A stretch of DNA of 7,108 nucleotides from a virus (lineage: Duplodnaviria > Heunggongvirae > Uroviricota > Caudoviricetes): positions 1 to 7,108 of the IMG/VR virus record IMGVR_UViG_2778261165_000002; one strand, given 5' to 3'. The notes beneath the pieces are model-generated. The model saw nothing but the letters and a program-made list of their open reading frames with translations, did not search any database and was not told the origin of the DNA. Each line of letters starts with the position of its first letter. Position 1 is the first letter of the stretch. The position numbers were made by a program, and so were the translations under genes. This document shows positions 548 through 5,363 of this stretch, piece after piece.

Positions 548-710
548 CGTCTTCTTCCTCGTACATTGAGCTATTCGGATCGCTCATCAGTTCTGCGCAG
601 CAATCGGAGCACACGTGAACTTCCAGCACATGCAGCTTCTGACCGCAGTTAGCGCACGTTAAAGCCCGCTCGACGCTTTCTTGTTCGTAACTTCGATTTT
701 GGTCAATCAC
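540..710 (-). CDS. ninF: NinF-like small zinc-ribbon protein, 56 aa, GTG start
   Basis: ORF 540..752 trimmed to the GTG at 710-708, which overlaps the ninE stop as GTGA and is preceded by GAGGAA. Contains CANCG...CSDCC cysteine pairs and an acidic tail EEEDDE. The 56-aa length and sequence match my recollection of lambda NinF. Confidence 0.55.
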
Positions 711-889
711 CTTGTATTCCTCGCACGATGTCTTAGCCACCGGATATCCCACAGGTGAGCCGTGTAATTGAAGGTTTTTACGTCAGATTCTTTTGGGATT
801 GGCTTGCGTTTATTTCTGGAGCGTTTCGTTGGAAGGTATTTGCAGTTTTCGCAGATGATATCGGTGAAACTTCGTCGCTGTCGCCTCAT
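707..889 (-). CDS. ninE: NinE-like protein, 60 aa
   Basis: ORF 707..979 trimmed to the ATG at 889-887 ([60 protein letters not shown]). AGGAGG lies 5 nt upstream; the start overlaps the methyltransferase stop as ATGA. Recalled similarity to lambda NinE. Confidence 0.6.
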
Positions 890-1413
890 GCCGCCCTCCT
901 GACGCCCTGCCCGATCGCCATCAATGCCGCTTTGGATACGGTAGTAAACATCCGTCGAGGACTGATGAACGGTCGCCAAATCAGCAGCATGGAGCCTTTA
1001 CTGTTTCCCCTCTTCTCCAGCCCTGTCGATGGTTCGATAAAATTAATCCGTCCATCAGTGATAATGCGAACTTCGTCAACACTCTCCAGAGCCTTGCTGA
1101 ACCATCCGACAGACATATCCTCTGGCACAAGCATCACTACCGTCTGTCGCTGTTGTATGCACTGCTCAGCGGCTTTTTCCACCCACGGCCTGATATTGCT
1201 GTACGGTGGGTTATTCCAGATTGCACCGTGGCTTATCCACTCAGAATTGAGTGCGTCGTCGGCCTCAGTTAGCCAGTGAGCGCACAGAGCATTTTTGTCG
1301 CTCGCAGCTGAATCCAGCCAGAATCCAAACTCAATATCCAGCGCATCAAAAAGCCAAAGCGGCGTTTGCCAGCAGTCCTTGTCGTGTGCTGGTGTATTTG
1401 ATTTGATAGTCAT
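886..1413 (-). CDS. Phage Dam-type DNA N6-adenine methyltransferase, 175 aa
   Basis: NPPY motif (motif IV of N6-adenine methyltransferases) in ...[12 protein letters not shown]..., N-terminal CWQTP segment, and a size typical of phage Dam. The ATG at 1413 overlaps the ninB stop as ATGA. Confidence 0.8.
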
Positions 1414-1856
1414 GCAGCCCTACCTTTTCGTTGTGACCATTCATACTCTCGCCGGGAGTCATCACTCCACCGCACGTTGCGCTCTGAGCCGAACCAGAAC
1501 ATGATTTCGATAAGCTCAGTCATGCTGGCCTTTCGCATTTTGCTGGTACGCACGCCAAGCATGACAACGCCACCATCGATACCAGGCACACTTCGTTGCT
1601 CCAGTTTTTTGGTCTTAAGCCACAGGGCAGTGAACAGGTCTTTCCAGTCCTCCGGCGCAAGTCTCTGTCCATGCCATAGCACCTGACGCGAAACATCGTT
1701 CAGCATCGGCCACATACGGTCATTCTGCGCTTTGCTGCGCTTGGGTTCTTTAACGTGGACTTCGTGGGGTGACTTGTCGTCGATGGGTAGTGAGAGAATG
1801 GCGTCTATGGCGTTATTTCTGATTGCTTCGTTGCGAAGCAGAAAGGTTTGCTTCAT
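1410..1856 (-). CDS. ninB: NinB (Orf-family recombination mediator), 148 aa
   Basis: ORF 1410..1958 trimmed to the ATG at 1856 (MKQTFLLRNEAIRNNAIDAIL...), preceded by GGAGAG. Colinear with recalled lambda NinB, including DVSRQV, GxRMxxxExxELxExxxxFGxERxVxWSD and a C-terminal RAA. Confidence 0.8.
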   Translation of the reverse strand: MKQTFLLRNEAIRNNAIDAILSLPIDDKSPHEVHVKEPKRSKAQNDRMWPMLNDVSRQVLWHGQRLAPEDWKDLFTALWLKTKKLEQRSVPGIDGGVVMLGVRTSKMRKASMTELIEIMFWFGSERNVRWSDDSRREYEWSQRKGRAA

Positions 1857-2049
1857 CTCCTGCTCTCCGGTTCCATTTTTCAGCCGCCGCAGCAACTGAT
1901 GGTGCCCATGCCCCCCTGGCTTCACAGAGGTCACATTCTGCATAGCCCCACACATCAATATTTATTCCGGCCTCAACCCACAGACGAGCATTACCGCCGC
2001 AAAACGGACATTCTTTTAGCTTTGGCTGGGTTAATGATAGGTCGCTCAT
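1813..2049 (-). CDS. Lar-family restriction alleviation protein (zinc ribbon), 78 aa
   Basis: ORF 1813..2055 trimmed to the ATG at 2049, with AAGGAG 5 nt upstream. CPFCGG...(24 aa)...CDLC zinc ribbon followed by AAAAEKWNRRA, matching the Lar family pattern CPFCG...C..C...A..WNRR. The 3' end overlaps the ninB start by 44 nt. Confidence 0.55.
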   Translation of the reverse strand: MSDLSLTQPKLKECPFCGGNARLWVEAGINIDVWGYAECDLCEARGAWAPSVAAAAEKWNRRAGDEANLSASQRSNQK

Positions 2050-2059
2050 GCTCACTCCT

Positions 2060-2275
2060 TCACTTTAAATCCAGACTCCGGATAATTCTGTTGCGCTGAA
2101 ACTCATTGTTGAGTTTGAACAACCGTCGAAGAACACGGTCACGCGGATAGCGTCGTGCGGCAGGTGAATGCTCATACAACTCATCAAGCGGCAAACTGGA
2201 CGATGAACGATACCGATACCAACGCACCAACTCTTCACGAAAATTAGCCCTGGCAAGCTCAGCTATCGTACTCAT
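2060..2275 (-). CDS. Hypothetical protein, 71 aa, arginine-rich
   Basis: ORF with ATG start and GGAGG about 9 nt upstream, in a tight same-strand gene array. No family recognised. Confidence 0.5.
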   Translation of the reverse strand: MSTIAELARANFREELVRWYRYRSSSSLPLDELYEHSPAARRYPRDRVLRRLFKLNNEFQRNRIIRSLDLK

Positions 2276-2405
2276 TTCTTAAAACCTCCTCAAACGCATT
2301 CTGACGCATTTTTCATTCTCGCTGCATTGGCATGCCTTGCACGCGTTTACCTCGCTACAGAGCGATTGTGATGCCTTAAAAGCGATTTATTGAAGTGATA
2401 TTTGC

Positions 2406-2738
2406 TTAATCGAAATTCTTTTCTTTGATTCCTGCGACCCTGATGGCTTTCATTACTGCAATTACCGTTTTGTCACGCCCATCCTCATAACCCATCGCAT
2501 AAGCACCTTCTTCACCATCTTTCCAAAAGTCGTCATTCGATTCGGGCCAGTCGATATCCAGTTCAATAGCTGCTCGCGATGCCTGCCATAAAGTCCACCA
2601 CTCATTTAAGGAGTGACGAATATCCATGCTTGAAAATGCGAAGTACCTATCACCATTTCTTGCCTCGGTTATCATCTCGAATGGTAATTTCAATTTTTTG
2701 GCAACGTATTCCTCAAACTGCTTTCTTGATTCGTCCAT
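2406..2738 (-). CDS. Hypothetical protein, 110 aa, acidic and Trp-rich
   Basis: ORF with ATG start and GAGGGT upstream, 17 nt after the preceding stop. No family recognised. Confidence 0.6.
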   Translation of the reverse strand: MDESRKQFEEYVAKKLKLPFEMITEARNGDRYFAFSSMDIRHSLNEWWTLWQASRAAIELDIDWPESNDDFWKDGEEGAYAMGYEDGRDKTVIAVMKAIRVAGIKEKNFD

Positions 2739-2755
2739 CGATACTTACCCTCAGT

Positions 2756-2962
2756 TCAACTCACAAAACGCCACGCCATTTTTGCTACAGCGACAGGCGC
2801 AACACCGATAATCACCCACAGGAGAATGCTACCGAAAATCACACCCACCAGGTCTTTACCTTCGCCTACCAACCGGACAAAACTGCTGGCAACCACAATG
2901 AACGTCGCCACCATCCACATAGCACCGAGAATCCTCAATGCAGAGAAAATTAACTCAGCCAC
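2756..2962 (-). CDS. Small membrane protein, 68 aa, two predicted transmembrane helices, GTG start
   Basis: Hydrophobic stretches ILGAMWMVATFIVVASSFV and LVGVIFGSILLWVIIGVAPVAV. GTG start preceded by GGGGAGAG, overlapping the stop of the upstream 27-aa ORF. Confidence 0.45.
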   Translation of the reverse strand: MAELIFSALRILGAMWMVATFIVVASSFVRLVGEGKDLVGVIFGSILLWVIIGVAPVAVAKMAWRFVS

Positions 2963-3038
2963 GATTTACTCTCCCCAAAATAAAAAGGCCTGCGATTACC
3001 AGCAGACCTGTTACAAGCTCAGTGATGTAGATGGTCAT
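2955..3038 (-). CDS. Candidate 27-aa hydrophobic peptide (MTIYITELVTGLLVIAGLFILGRVNRG)
   Basis: Its ATG overlaps the helicase stop as TGATG, with AGGAGG 6 nt upstream inside the helicase 3' end. One predicted transmembrane helix. Below the ORF-track size cutoff, so found by hand translation. Confidence 0.3.
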   Translation of the reverse strand: MTIYITELVTGLLVIAGLFILGRVNRG

Positions 3039-4474
3039 CAGAATCCTCCTTTCTTCTTGGACTGCGGTTCCTCGCGTTCACGGCGGCGCATTTCAGCAGA
3101 CTGTTGGTCTGTGTCATAAATAGCGCCATTTGCCTGAATGCAATACACCGTGCCGGTATTGCCATGACGATTGAGACGAAGGATTAGTTCGGTTTCACCA
3201 GGTGGAACACTGTCATCAAAAGCACCTTCACGATGGATCCCCACCCAATAATCGCAATCCTGTTCAATCTGCCCTGTATCGCGCGAGTCACTTGGTAATG
3301 GGCGTTTATTGGTTCGGCTTTCCAGTGCGCGGTTAAGCTGTGTCAGAAGCACAACAACGCAATCAAGCTCTTTGGCAAGGTTCTTCAGTCCTTTGGTGAT
3401 CATGCCGTAAGCAAGGTCGTTGCGATCGGCCTTTTCAGCGGTCATTAGTGTCAGGTAATCGACCAGAATCATGCCAACACATCCTTTTTCTCGCTTGATT
3501 CGACGGCTTTCGCTGACGATTTGAGCCAGAGATAATCCCGGCGTGTCGTCGATGTAAAGCAGGTCGATTTCACTCAAGCGATTGGCTGTTTCGATCGCCC
3601 TGTTGAAGTCACCATCGTAATCACCCTGATAGCCGTCATCAGCGTCATTTGTCGCCGGAATGTAAAAAATATTCGGGTTAACACCTGACTTCTGTCCTAC
3701 CAGCTTTTCCAGTATCTGGTCGCCTGGCATTTCAAGACTGAACATCAGAGCGGGCTTTTTCTCATGCACTGCGCAGTTGATTGCCATCTGGCTGTATAGC
3801 GTCGTTTTCCCCATCTTAGGGCGAGCGCCAATGACGAACAGAGAGCCTTTCACCAGACCTTTCGGTGACAGCATCCTGTCCAGAGATGGGATCCCTGTGC
3901 TCATTCCTCGTTGTTCGCCTGACGGGTCAAATCGCTTCTCAAGGTCGCTAACCCAGTCTTCCATGACCTCACCAAATGAGCGAAGGCCGCGACGCGATCC
4001 GGTTTTTGCATGGTCTGTCAGTTGCGTGAAAATCGCCTGAATAGCTTCGTACTTCTGCGTCGCAGTCATTCCGTTGCGGGAATAGAGCAATTCCGTCGCT
4101 TCAGTCATGCGGTTGATGGCGTAGCGTTCCATTGCGGTTTCACGAACCTGCATTGCATAGGCAACGATGTTTGCTGCGCTTGGCGTGTTCTTTGCGATCT
4201 CAGCGATATAAGCAAAACCGCCAACAGACGCCGTTAACGATTTGCGCTCCAGTTCATCGAAAAGCGTCAGCCCATCTACTGGCTTTTGCTCCCGGTGCAT
4301 TCTGGTTATTTCTTCGAAAAGGATTTTGTGTGGTCGGCTGTAAAATGAATCAGGCTTCAGCATCGCCAGAACTTTCCGGACGCGCTCACTGCTGTCATCA
4401 TCCAGAAGCAATCCACCAATCACCGCCTGCTCTGCCTCGATGCTATGGGGCGGCGCATAAAAATTATCGGTCAT
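3038..4474 (-). CDS. DnaB-family replicative DNA helicase, 478 aa
   Basis: DnaB-like N-terminal domain (IEAEQAVIGGLLLDD), Walker A GARPKMGKT, Walker B-like ILVDYLTLM. ORF 3038..4489 trimmed to the ATG at 4474 (GAGGG upstream); the ORF-track start at 4489 is a GTG. Confidence 0.9.
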   Translation of the reverse strand: MTDNFYAPPHSIEAEQAVIGGLLLDDDSSERVRKVLAMLKPDSFYSRPHKILFEEITRMHREQKPVDGLTLFDELERKSLTASVGGFAYIAEIAKNTPSAANIVAYAMQVRETAMERYAINRMTEATELLYSRNGMTATQKYEAIQAIFTQLTDHAKTGSRRGLRSFGEVMEDWVSDLEKRFDPSGEQRGMSTGIPSLDRMLSPKGLVKGSLFVIGARPKMGKTTLYSQMAINCAVHEKKPALMFSLEMPGDQILEKLVGQKSGVNPNIFYIPATNDADDGYQGDYDGDFNRAIETANRLSEIDLLYIDDTPGLSLAQIVSESRRIKREKGCVGMILVDYLTLMTAEKADRNDLAYGMITKGLKNLAKELDCVVVLLTQLNRALESRTNKRPLPSDSRDTGQIEQDCDYWVGIHREGAFDDSVPPGETELILRLNRHGNTGTVYCIQANGAIYDTDQQSAEMRRREREEPQSKKKGGF

Positions 4475-5363
4475 CGTGTTCACCCTCACGAACTTTCAGG
4501 TAGGTATTGTCGTTAAGCAGGAAATCAAATCCCTTTTTGTGCCAGACGGTTCCGCGTTGATGGTTTGGGCGTTCTTCGAACATCCATCGGCAATTTTCGC
4601 CTACGTAGATCAAATAATTTCTCCAGTCCTGCATCGTGAACCCATGCCCGTCAAGCTGGCGGGTTATCACTCCGGCTTTGCGCCAGAACGTTCGGATCTG
4701 GTTTTTACGCTTGTCATTCAGTGCGCGGATTTTTGGCGCTTCAGGAAGGATTTCGTGGTAAGCATCGACAACATCCTGACAGCTAACGGAAGTTTTTTTC
4801 TTGTCAGACTTTTTGTCTGCTGTGGCACTCTCTAATACGTCAGTATTAGAGATAATATTATTATATTCTTTATCTGTGGTAATTTGCTGGTAATCTGCTG
4901 GTACAGTATTGCTTACAGGCATTGGTATTGCTGGCTTTGAGGTGGTAATTTGCTGGTAATCTGCTGGTACAAAATTTGACTGATAATCGTCATATTTCTC
5001 TACCGAGAAAACTGAGAATTTACCGTGTGAAACCCAGTCAATCATGCCGAGTTTTTTGAACTTTCTAAGCAGGTACTGAACGCGATCTGGTTTGAGTCCT
5101 GTTTCAAACGCCAGAGAGTTTCTACCGCCAAGTAGCTTCCCTCTGCCTACCAGAATTTCTCCTGCGTCAGTCATTACATACTCAGGCGTATGCTTTGCTT
5201 TGAGGATTAAGTGAACCCACAGATGCGCTGCTTCTGCGTCCTTGTAAAACGGCACATCCATAATTTTACGGTGCAGCAAGGCATACCCCTTACCGCTGCT
5301 TTGATGCGGTTGTTGTAGCCTTCTGGCCTCTCTGGCTTCGGCTAGATTAGATATGTTACTCAT
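4464..5363 (-). CDS. Replication initiation protein (lambda O functional analogue, non-lambda sequence), 299 aa
   Basis: Sits between cII and the helicase. Strong RBS AAGGAG 7 nt before the ATG. Iteron-like direct repeats lie inside the coding sequence and encode a duplicated [10 protein letters not shown] peptide. Stop overlaps the helicase start by 11 nt. Confidence 0.7.
4876..4971. repeat. Putative replication origin iterons inside the initiator gene
   Basis: Two identical 30-bp direct repeats (4876..4905 and 4942..4971), each with two copies of TGCTGGTA spaced 11 bp apart, plus a degenerate copy near 4929. An AT-rich tract (about 4840..4875) adjoins on the downstream side relative to the initiator gene. 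Confidence 0.6.

What the first reader, a model, noticed from the sequence alone, without database searches (positions are those of the whole stretch)
2060..2738. Two unrecognised proteins and a 130-bp noncoding gap within the early operon
The 110-aa acidic, Trp-rich protein and the 71-aa Arg-rich protein match no family I recognise. They sit directly upstream of the Lar-like and methyltransferase genes, where early anti-defence and host-takeover genes tend to cluster. The 130-bp gap (2276..2405) is the only substantial intergenic space in an otherwise overlapping array and contains short inverted repeats (TCGCTctgtAGCGA, GGCATGCC).
Basis: inference. Interest (0 to 1): 0.5.

Follow-up and report, generated by a model that had tools for sequence, protein, structure and literature searches.

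The report
Two uncharacterised prophage genes, recombination-scar spacer
The two small genes are real and belong to catalogued but functionally unstudied phage protein families found in Shiga-toxin phages such as 933W, and the 130-bp gap between them looks like a leftover recombination joint, so the finding is ordinary.

Summary
orf110 (2406-2738, minus strand) has pI 4.8 and 5 Trp. orf71 (2060-2275, minus strand) has pI 10.8 and 14 Arg. A 130-bp untranslated gap separates them in the rightward early operon of a 933W-like lambdoid prophage.

Both proteins now belong to named families of unknown function. orf71 is DUF7301 (PF23975, 89 bits). Relatives of orf110 carry PF26207 (Phage_phiTE_015). 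The same DNA occurs in hundreds of Stx phages and E. coli genomes. Sequence and fold searches gave no functional homologue. Both genes shuffle independently among helicase, NinA, Lar and NinB, as optional nin-region cargo does.

The gap is best read as a recombination scar. It begins with a dead copy of the ninB start (ATT AAG CAA ATA T). The block spacer + orf71 + lar is bracketed by the repeat ATGAAGCAAA. In other phages orf71 follows NinA directly, so it does not need the gap. The flagged inverted repeats occur at chance frequency, and the palindrome is broken in about a third of copies. No promoter, terminator, Rfam family or conserved small ORF was found. One small hairpin (2338-2359) shows a single compensatory pair, which is weak evidence.

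The anti-defence idea remains plausible but untested.

The parts
2406..2738 (-). orf110: 110-aa acidic protein, relatives carry Pfam PF26207 (Phage_phiTE_015), PHROG 343. It has two modules that exchange at the conserved WQASRAAIE motif (about 2590).
   Evidence: ORF. phrog_343 at E 1.1e-28. All 120 listed homologues carry PF26207, which is named. AF2 model: pLDDT 73, helices 3-16, 20-28, 40-56 and 85-101, residues 76-84 disordered.
2276..2405 (.). 130-bp untranslated spacer, read as a mosaic joint. It has invariant flanks and a variable centre (2306-2365).
   Evidence: It is never annotated as a gene in 466 complete E. coli genomes. No Rfam hit. No promoter or terminator. Fold z-scores are +0.67 and +0.86.
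2398..2410 (-). Vestigial ninB start, ATT AAG CAA ATA T. The ATG>ATT change creates the TAA stop of orf110 (2406-2408). This is the left copy of the ATGAAGCAAA repeat.
   Evidence: One search compares it with mEp213 NinB (ATG AAG CAA ATA TAC...) and with L062-type loci, which keep the ATG. Homology to mEp213 ends at about 2398.
2338..2359 (-). Candidate small RNA hairpin, UGUAGCG-AGGUAAA-CGC(G)UGCA. Weak evidence only.
   Evidence: RNAalifold and pair counts: 18 distinct alleles all paired, one pair seen as C-G, U-G and U-A, 2 of 500 shuffles as high. With more alleles, six stem transitions keep pairing and one singleton allele breaks it. On its own the hairpin has z = -0.71.
2285..2289 (-). 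Shine-Dalgarno GGAGG of orf71, 9 nt before the ATG. It lies in the roughly 16-20 nt that travel with orf71 in every context.
   Evidence: Sequence. It is shared between both upstream context types.
2060..2275 (-). orf71: 71-aa basic, Arg-rich protein, Pfam DUF7301 (PF23975), PHROG 1785. Predicted to form a helical hairpin.
   Evidence: Pfam 89.2 bits against a cut-off of 27. phrog_1785 at E 1.5e-32. Family alignment. AF2 pLDDT 86, helices 3-25, 30-35 and 44-69.
1813..2049 (-). Lar-like restriction-alleviation gene, the right-hand gene of the inserted block. Its tail, DEANLSASQRSNQK, is read from the alternate frame of the ninB 5' end.
   Evidence: PF14354 at E 1.9e-10 and TIGR03655 at 62 bits. 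Start and RBS read. Tail.
1847..1856 (-). True ninB start, ATGAAGCAAA, preceded by GGAG. This is the right copy of the repeat that brackets spacer + orf71 + lar.
   Evidence: The Pfam NinB match begins at residue 35 of the listed ORF.
2955..3038 (-). NinA-like 27-aa ORF enclosing a terminator-like hairpin (2986-3009) in the position of lambda tR2. It marks the start of the nin region, upstream of orf68, orf110 and orf71.
   Evidence: The same segment abuts orf71 directly in other phages.

Best explanation
The interval is the proximal part of the nin region of a 933W-like lambdoid prophage. This is the slot for optional genes between the replication genes and ninB.

Shown:
- orf110 and orf71 are genuine, conserved protein-coding genes. 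orf71 is DUF7301 and relatives of orf110 carry PF26207. Both families are uncharacterised.
- Each gene moves as an independent mosaic module.
- The 130-bp gap is a non-coding recombination scar. Its first 13 nt are a dead ninB start codon region. The block spacer + orf71 + lar (about 2397-1857) is bracketed by the direct repeat ATGAAGCAAA. Only the last 16-20 nt, which carry the GGAGG ribosome-binding site, travel with orf71 in other contexts.

Inferred:
- The genes are transcribed from pR as delayed-early genes, after antitermination at the terminator-like hairpin at 2986-3009.
- orf71 is translated from its own strong ribosome-binding site.
- Both products act by binding rather than catalysis.
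- DUF7301 is a basic two-helix hairpin. Its conserved residues cluster at the loop end (SSSLP..E..P..YxRDRVL). It most likely binds nucleic acid or an acidic partner protein.
- orf110 is an acidic two-module protein. It has an N-terminal helical domain with SRxQFE...WQASR and a C-terminal Asp/Glu/Trp-rich segment. It most likely binds a host or phage protein.
- Their biological role is optional. I put about 0.35 on help against host defences, and the rest on fine-tuning of recombination or replication, or on exclusion of other phages.
For: Family membership.

Real genes:
- DUF7301 shows a conserved motif in 39 relatives at 25-96% identity, from Escherichia, Salmonella, Serratia, Klebsiella, Erwinia, Ewingella and Rahnella.
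- The PF26207 family is conserved across Escherichia, Salmonella, Hafnia, Cronobacter and Enterobacter.
- Both genes have Shine-Dalgarno sequences.

Ordinary and widespread:
- Identical DNA occurs in E. coli chromosomes, and the interval matches 869 of 5426 complete genomes.
- The same gene order is found in 933W-type phages.

Independent modules:
- In 80 viral contigs, the gene upstream of orf71 is an orf110-family gene in 47, NinA in 24 and orf68 in 5. The downstream gene is Lar in 57, NinB in 14 and an orf110-family gene in 7.

Scar.

Non-coding gap:
- Alleles of 135, 136 and 137 nt shift every reading frame.
- A tblastn search with the gap translation finds only copies of itself.
- The gap is never annotated as a gene.

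Optional cargo:
- Deletions removing part or all of Sf6 genes 46-58 are viable and selected in culture (PMC5630979). That region includes gene 48, which the phage 1717 record names as similar to its orf110 homologue.
- mEp213 lacks orf71 and lar, and PhiR12_1 lacks an orf110 gene.
Against: - No functional evidence of any kind exists. No homologue or structural neighbour with a known role was found.
- The binding modes are inferred only from charge and predicted shape.
- The centre of the gap contains one hairpin with a compensatory pair. The two major alleles both keep an 8-bp palindrome (GGCATGCC, GGTATACC). A small cis element is therefore not excluded.
- Transcription from pR and the role of the terminator-like hairpin rest on analogy with lambda. 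No transcript data were examined.
Confidence: 0.75

Rival explanations
1. One reading: one or both proteins are dedicated inhibitors of host defence or host-takeover factors, clustered with Lar and Dam.
For: - Both lie in the same optional-gene slot as Lar and Dam.
- In 57 of 80 loci orf71 is followed by Lar.
- DUF7301 relatives often lie near DNA methyltransferases.
- Both genes are optional and highly mosaic, and the two halves of orf110 recombine separately.
- orf110 is acidic and orf71 is strongly basic.
Against: - No match to any known anti-restriction or other characterised protein by profile, PDB sequence or fold search. PADLOC also gave nothing, but it holds defence systems rather than their inhibitors.
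- orf110 has a net charge of only about -7, far from DNA mimics such as Ocr or ArdA.
- orf71 and Lar alleles recombine independently. Diversity jumps just inside lar.
- A published DefenseFinder run on EHEC phage genomes, which include phi345, a phage that carries this block, reported only methyltransferase, Ral and Gam (PMC12502783).
Confidence: 0.3
2. The gap holds a small cis-acting element, for example an RNA hairpin at 2338-2359 that affects processing, stability or translation of the orf71-lar message, or a palindromic protein-binding site.
For: - The hairpin is paired in 18 of 18 distinct alleles, with one pair seen as C-G, U-G and U-A. Only 2 of 500 shuffles score as high.
- Both major alleles keep an 8-bp palindrome through symmetric changes.
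- The flanks of the gap are invariant.
Against: - Single-sequence folding is no better than shuffles: z = +0.67 and +0.86 for the gap, -0.71 for the hairpin.
- The alleles are closely related, so the covariation is essentially one event. With more alleles, 6 transitions keep pairing and 1 breaks it, P about 0.1 by my estimate.
- The palindrome is broken in about 35% of copies.
- Palindrome counts are at chance level.
- orf71 functions without the gap in NinA-type contexts.
- No Rfam match.
Confidence: 0.15
3. The gap carries a promoter, so that spacer + orf71 + lar is a self-transcribed insert (a moron), possibly expressed from the prophage.
For: The block is a discrete insertion bracketed by a short repeat, which is how morons are built.
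Against: - No sigma-70-like site on the minus strand of the gap at 9 of 12 matches.
- No terminator follows lar.
- lar overlaps ninB, and orf71 abuts NinA in other phages, which indicates read-through operon transcription.
Confidence: 0.07
4. The gap encodes a small peptide, or an upstream ORF coupled to orf71.
For: In the commonest 137-nt allele, a GTG-started ORF of about 21 codons follows a GAGG and ends 4 nt before the orf71 ATG (sequences).
Against: - The 135-nt allele (this window) and the 136-nt allele (933W) shift that frame, giving unrelated peptides of 9 and 17 residues.
- tblastn finds no homologue outside this locus.
- PGAP never annotates a gene there.
Confidence: 0.03

Closest known systems
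Pfam PF23975 (DUF7301); PHROG 1785; 933W ORF-61, ST64T Orf-69
   Same: orf71 matches the model end to end (89 bits). It shares the motif RY..SSSLP..E..P..YxRDRVL.RL, the roughly 70-aa length and the location between the replication genes and ninB.
   Different: Nothing of note. It is 96-97% identical to database members. The family has no known function.
Pfam PF26207 (Phage_phiTE_015); PHROG 343; Sf6 gene 48, 933W ORF-60
   Same: It shares the N-terminal SRxQFE...WQASRxAIE helices and the C-terminal AIRAAGIKxK end, and it sits in the same nin-region slot.
   Different: This allele combines an N-terminal half that differs from the 92-aa 933W version with the same C-terminal half. It ends at a TAA created by the dead ninB start, whereas mEp213-type relatives run on over ninB (118-123 aa).
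Lambda nin region (ren-ninA-tR2-ninB...) and lambdoid mosaic joints at gene boundaries
   Same: Optional genes sit between the replication genes and ninB, downstream of a terminator in the tR2 position. Module borders fall at gene starts and ends, with short shared sequences.
   Different: Lambda itself has neither gene. Here the joint left a 130-bp untranslated scar instead of the usual overlapping stop and start codons.
Arginine-rich RNA-binding phage proteins (lambda and P22 N with boxB)
   Same: orf71 is small, helical and about 20% arginine, and a small hairpin lies in its leader.
   Different: There is no sequence similarity. The hairpin has a 7-nt AGGUAAA loop rather than a GNRA-like pentaloop. 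The hairpin is absent where orf71 follows NinA. This is a loose analogy only.

Membership tests
Pfam PF23975 DUF7301 | Score above the curated gathering cut-off over the full model | tested here: met
   89.2 bits against a cut-off of 27, residues 1-64 on model positions 1-64 of 65.
Pfam PF23975 DUF7301 | Conserved family motif and length (about 70 aa, SSSLP...RDRVL) | tested here: met
   Alignment of 39 relatives. L28 and R45 are invariant. S26, E32, P38, D46 and V48 are conserved in at least 90%.
Pfam PF26207 Phage_phiTE_015 | Direct score of orf110 against the PF26207 model | not testable with these tools
   The local Pfam copy lacks this model, and the scan returned no family.
Pfam PF26207 Phage_phiTE_015 | Clear homology to proteins that carry the PF26207 assignment | tested here: met
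   All 120 listed homologues (E from 1e-66 to 1e-20, up to 97% identity) carry PF26207. The family name is given. phrog_343 matches at E 1.1e-28.
Lar/Ral restriction alleviation (PF14354, TIGR03655) | Profile match with the Cys4 zinc-ribbon | tested here: not met
   Only the neighbouring 78/80-aa gene matches. orf71 and orf110 contain no Cys and give no hit.
DNA-mimic anti-restriction proteins (Ocr, ArdA type) | Very high negative charge and an elongated DNA-like fold | tested here: not met
Known anti-phage defence proteins (PADLOC-DB) | Profile match | tested here: not met
   No family at E up to 1 for orf110, orf71 or orf68.
Known RNA families (Rfam 15) in the gap | Covariance-model score near the gathering threshold | tested here: not met
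   No hit at E up to 1 in the whole window. Only noise (10-14 bits against 33-45 required) when the gap is searched alone.
Intrinsic terminator or sigma-70 promoter in the gap | GC-rich hairpin plus U-run, or -35/-10 hexamers | tested here: not met
   The scan of 1800-3200 found neither in 2276-2405. The only minus-strand terminator-like site is at 2986-3009.
RalR/RalA type I toxin-antitoxin | RalR equivalog score and an adjacent antitoxin RNA | tested here: not met
   The Lar-like gene scores 27.5 bits against the cut-off of 113 for the RalR equivalog. No RNA family was found.

The most novel reading that the evidence does not exclude
DUF7301 is an arginine-rich nucleic-acid-binding protein that either recognises the small hairpin or palindromes in its own leader, or blocks a host defence or recombination nuclease. 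In that case the spacer + orf71 + lar block would be a mobile counter-defence module that inserts at the ninB start.
Probability: 0.08. Interest if true: 0.55.

Novelty: already known. Interest (0 to 1): 0.15.

Why it matters
Little changes for this window. Both genes are standard, already catalogued 'hypothetical' genes of Stx-converting phages, and the gap is a scar.

The practical value is as a pointer. DUF7301 and PF26207 are widespread in Enterobacterales prophages, and the interval matches 869 of 5426 complete E. coli genomes, many of them EHEC. They are optional, they sit beside Lar and Dam, and no sequence or fold homology explains them. That makes them reasonable candidates for anti-defence or host-interaction screens.

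The repeat-bracketed block also gives a clean example of how nin-region cargo is inserted at a gene start.

Tried and rejected
Function by homology:
- Pfam, NCBIfam, PHROGs and PADLOC gave only DUF or 'unknown function' labels.
- PDB sequence searches with single proteins and with family profiles gave nothing.
- AFDB50 was not available.

Gap as a decayed gene: tblastn with its translation found only itself.

Gap as RNA: Rfam twice and folding of both strands gave nothing.

Gap signals: the promoter and terminator scan was negative, and inverted repeats and palindromes were at chance level.

Upstream ORF: rejected because the three indel alleles shift the frame.

Context searches: the genome-contig scan with the DUF7301 alignment found no confirmed locus.

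Literature: searches for DUF7301, PF26207, phiTE_015, ST64T orf-69 and 933Wp30-32 found no paper.

phi92 match: a 42-nt similarity between the gap's 3' end and phi92-like phages led to no shared gene.

RalR/RalA toxin-antitoxin: rejected on score.

Full report
**Setting.** The window is the immunity and early-right region of a lambdoid prophage of E. coli.
- cI lies on the plus strand (6244-6981).
- On the minus strand come cro, cII, an O-like gene and a DnaB-type helicase (3038-4489).
- Next are a 27-aa NinA-like ORF enclosing a terminator-like hairpin (2986-3009), a 68-aa membrane protein, orf110, the gap and orf71.
- These are followed by a Lar-like gene, NinB, Dam, NinE and NinF.
- The interval 2000-2800 is 100% identical to two chicken E. 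coli chromosomes and matches 869 of 5426 complete E. coli genomes.
- The stretch 2060-2420 (orf71 plus the gap) is found at 95-99% identity in 182 phage records, all Stx-converting or related E. coli phages, including 933W-type and VT2-Sakai.

**Check of the observation.**
- orf110 has pI 4.77 and 5 Trp. orf71 has pI 10.8 and 14 Arg.
- The gap is 130 bp and is the largest untranslated stretch in the operon.
- Both inverted repeats exist, but neither is unusual. 39% of shuffles of the gap contain an 8-bp palindrome and 43% contain a 5-bp hairpin. Dinucleotide-preserving shuffles give P = 0.51.

**What the proteins are.**
- orf71 is a full-length member of Pfam DUF7301 (89 bits, cut-off 27) and PHROG 1785.
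- A profile search of 1.84 billion cluster representatives found 44 relatives. A second search placed the family in prophages of Escherichia, Salmonella (ST64T Orf-69), Enterobacter, Serratia, Klebsiella, Erwinia, Rahnella and Ewingella.
- The DUF7301 alignment shows a firm motif, RY..SSSLP..E..P..YxRDRVL.RL. This is a real protein under constraint.
- AlphaFold2 gives a confident two-helix hairpin (pLDDT 86) with the conserved residues at the loop end.
- orf110 matches PHROG 343. All 120 listed homologues carry PF26207, which another tool names Phage_phiTE_015. The local Pfam copy lacks that model, so the direct score could not be obtained.
- orf110 has two modules. 933W-type phages share only the C-terminal half (window 2406-2590), while other relatives share only the N-terminal half. 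The exchange point is the conserved WQASRAAIE motif.
- Its model is moderate (pLDDT 73), with a helical N-terminal domain and a poorly ordered Asp/Glu/Trp-rich segment.
- The papers library holds nothing on either family.

**How the genes behave.**
- In 80 viral contigs carrying close copies of orf71, the upstream neighbour is an orf110-family gene in 47, the NinA/terminator segment in 24 and orf68 in 5.
- The downstream neighbour is Lar in 57, NinB in 14 and an orf110-family gene in 7.
- Distant DUF7301 genes sit between the helicase and NinB in Salmonella, Ewingella and Klebsiella prophages. In Serratia the gene lies in an early region near an integrase and an MT-A70 methylase.
- mEp213 has orf110 but neither orf71 nor lar. 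PhiR12_1 has orf71 but no orf110-family gene.
- In Sf6, deletions removing part or all of genes 46-58 arise spontaneously and are favoured in culture (PMC5630979). That region includes gene 48, which the phage 1717 record names as similar to its orf110 homologue.
- Both genes are therefore optional, independently shuffling nin-region cargo.

**What the gap is.**
- Homology breakpoints define it as a unit. Phages of the mEp213 type stop matching at about 2398, and PhiR12_1 stops matching at about 2289.
- The left end is a dead ninB start. mEp213 reads TTCG ATG AAG CAA ATA TAC ATG CTT..., which is NinB (MKQIYMLRNEAIRNN) overlapping the end of the orf110 homologue. The window reads TTCG ATT AAG CAA ATA TCA CTT CAA TAA.
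- The G-to-T change destroys the ATG and creates the TAA stop of orf110. Loci in which orf68 precedes the gap still have the ATG.
- The working ninB start, GGAG ATG AAG CAA ACC, lies at 1856 inside the end of lar. The block spacer + orf71 + lar is therefore bracketed by the direct repeat ATGAAGCAAA.
- At the right end, only the last 16-20 nt, which carry the GGAGG ribosome-binding site, are shared with the NinA-type context. There orf71 overlaps the NinA stop.
- The gap is non-coding. Alleles of 135, 136 and 137 nt shift every frame. A tblastn search with its translation finds only itself. The core occurs in 466 complete E. coli genomes and is never annotated as a gene.
- It has no Rfam match and no promoter- or terminator-like site. 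Its folding is no better than shuffles, with z = +0.67 and +0.86.
- Within the conserved module, the gap centre (2306-2365) is the most polymorphic part, with pi about 0.07 against about 0.006 in orf71. The flanks of the gap are invariant.

**Residual hints in the gap.**
- A 7-bp hairpin with a bulge (2338-2359, minus strand) is paired in all 18 distinct alleles first examined. One pair is seen as C-G, U-G and U-A, and 2 of 500 shuffles score as high.
- With more alleles, six stem transitions keep pairing and one singleton allele breaks it. About half of all transitions keep pairing by chance, so this is about P = 0.1 by my estimate. The alleles are also close relatives.
About 35% of copies carry broken forms such as GGTATGCC, GGCATGTC and GGAATGCC.
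- I treat a small cis element as possible, at about 0.15, but not shown.

**Mechanism.**
- Shown: both are genuine genes of catalogued families, both move as modules, and the gap is a scar.
- Inferred by analogy with lambda: transcription from pR, with passage of the terminator-like hairpin at 2986-3009 by antitermination, and translation of orf71 from its own ribosome-binding site.
- Inferred from charge and predicted shape only: both proteins work by binding. DUF7301 would bind nucleic acid or an acidic partner. orf110 would bind a host or phage protein.
I give it about 0.3.

**Verdict.** The sequences and both families are already known, though their function is not, and the gap is ordinary. 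Interest is low. The main value is to flag two widespread EHEC-prophage families as candidates for functional screens.

Noticed in passing
window 2955-3038 (-), hairpin 2986-3009: A 27-aa NinA-like ORF (MTIYITELVTGLLVIAGLFILGRVNRG) overlaps the helicase stop and encloses a terminator-like hairpin followed by a U-run, in the position of lambda tR2. The same segment abuts orf71 directly in other phages. The 'peptide' may simply be the terminator read as codons.
   Followed up: partly
window 2756-2962 (-): A 68-aa hydrophobic protein, probably with two membrane spans (PHROG 1165, unknown function), sits between the terminator and orf110. In some phages it is followed directly by the gap, with no orf110.
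   Followed up: partly
window 1813-1856 (-) and homologues P0022, P0001: The C-terminal tail of Lar (DEANLSASQRSNQK) is encoded by the alternate frame of the ninB 5' end. Whichever gene sits upstream of ninB acquires this tail; mEp213-type orf110 homologues end ...FDEANIHASQRSNQK.
   Followed up: yes
window 2276-2317; L095 701-742 (phage phi92): The 42 nt just upstream of the orf71 start, including the GGAGG and a weak AAAUGCGU-CAGA-AUGCGUUU hairpin, are 83-89% identical to an intergenic stretch between convergent genes 036 and 037 of phi92-like virulent phages. There the sequence folds well (z = -3.15). No shared gene was found.
   Followed up: partly
protein P0146 (68 aa): A chimera with a Cro/YdaS-type helix-turn-helix N-terminus fused to the last 29 residues of DUF7301. 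This shows recombination inside orf71 as well.
   Followed up: no
L001 3943-4158 and 3440-3608 (phage 1717): Phage 1717 carries an ST64T Orf-69-like gene upstream of its orf110 homologue; ST64T Orf-69 is itself a DUF7301 protein. Its DNA also matches this window's gap and the start of orf71 downstream, where the record annotates a 141-aa 'Lar-like' ORF instead. The phage may therefore carry two DUF7301 copies. I did not test the 1717 genes directly.
   Followed up: no
window 2338-2359 and 2986-3009 (-): The loop of the gap hairpin (AGGUAAA) and the loop of the terminator-like hairpin (UGGUAAUC) both contain GGUAA. This is probably coincidence.
   Followed up: no
window 2306-2345: The two major gap alleles differ by 7 transitions within about 30 nt, while the flanks are identical. 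Allele B carries two adjacent 8-bp palindromes (GCACGTGC, GGTATACC). That is not significant against shuffles (P = 0.11), but the clustered divergence is unexplained.
   Followed up: partly
window 1410-1958, 707-979 (-): The mechanical ORFs for NinB (182 aa from TTG) and NinE (90 aa) are longer than the real genes. The Pfam matches begin at residue 35 of NinB and residue 31 of NinE. The NinB start is the ATG at 1856.
   Followed up: partly
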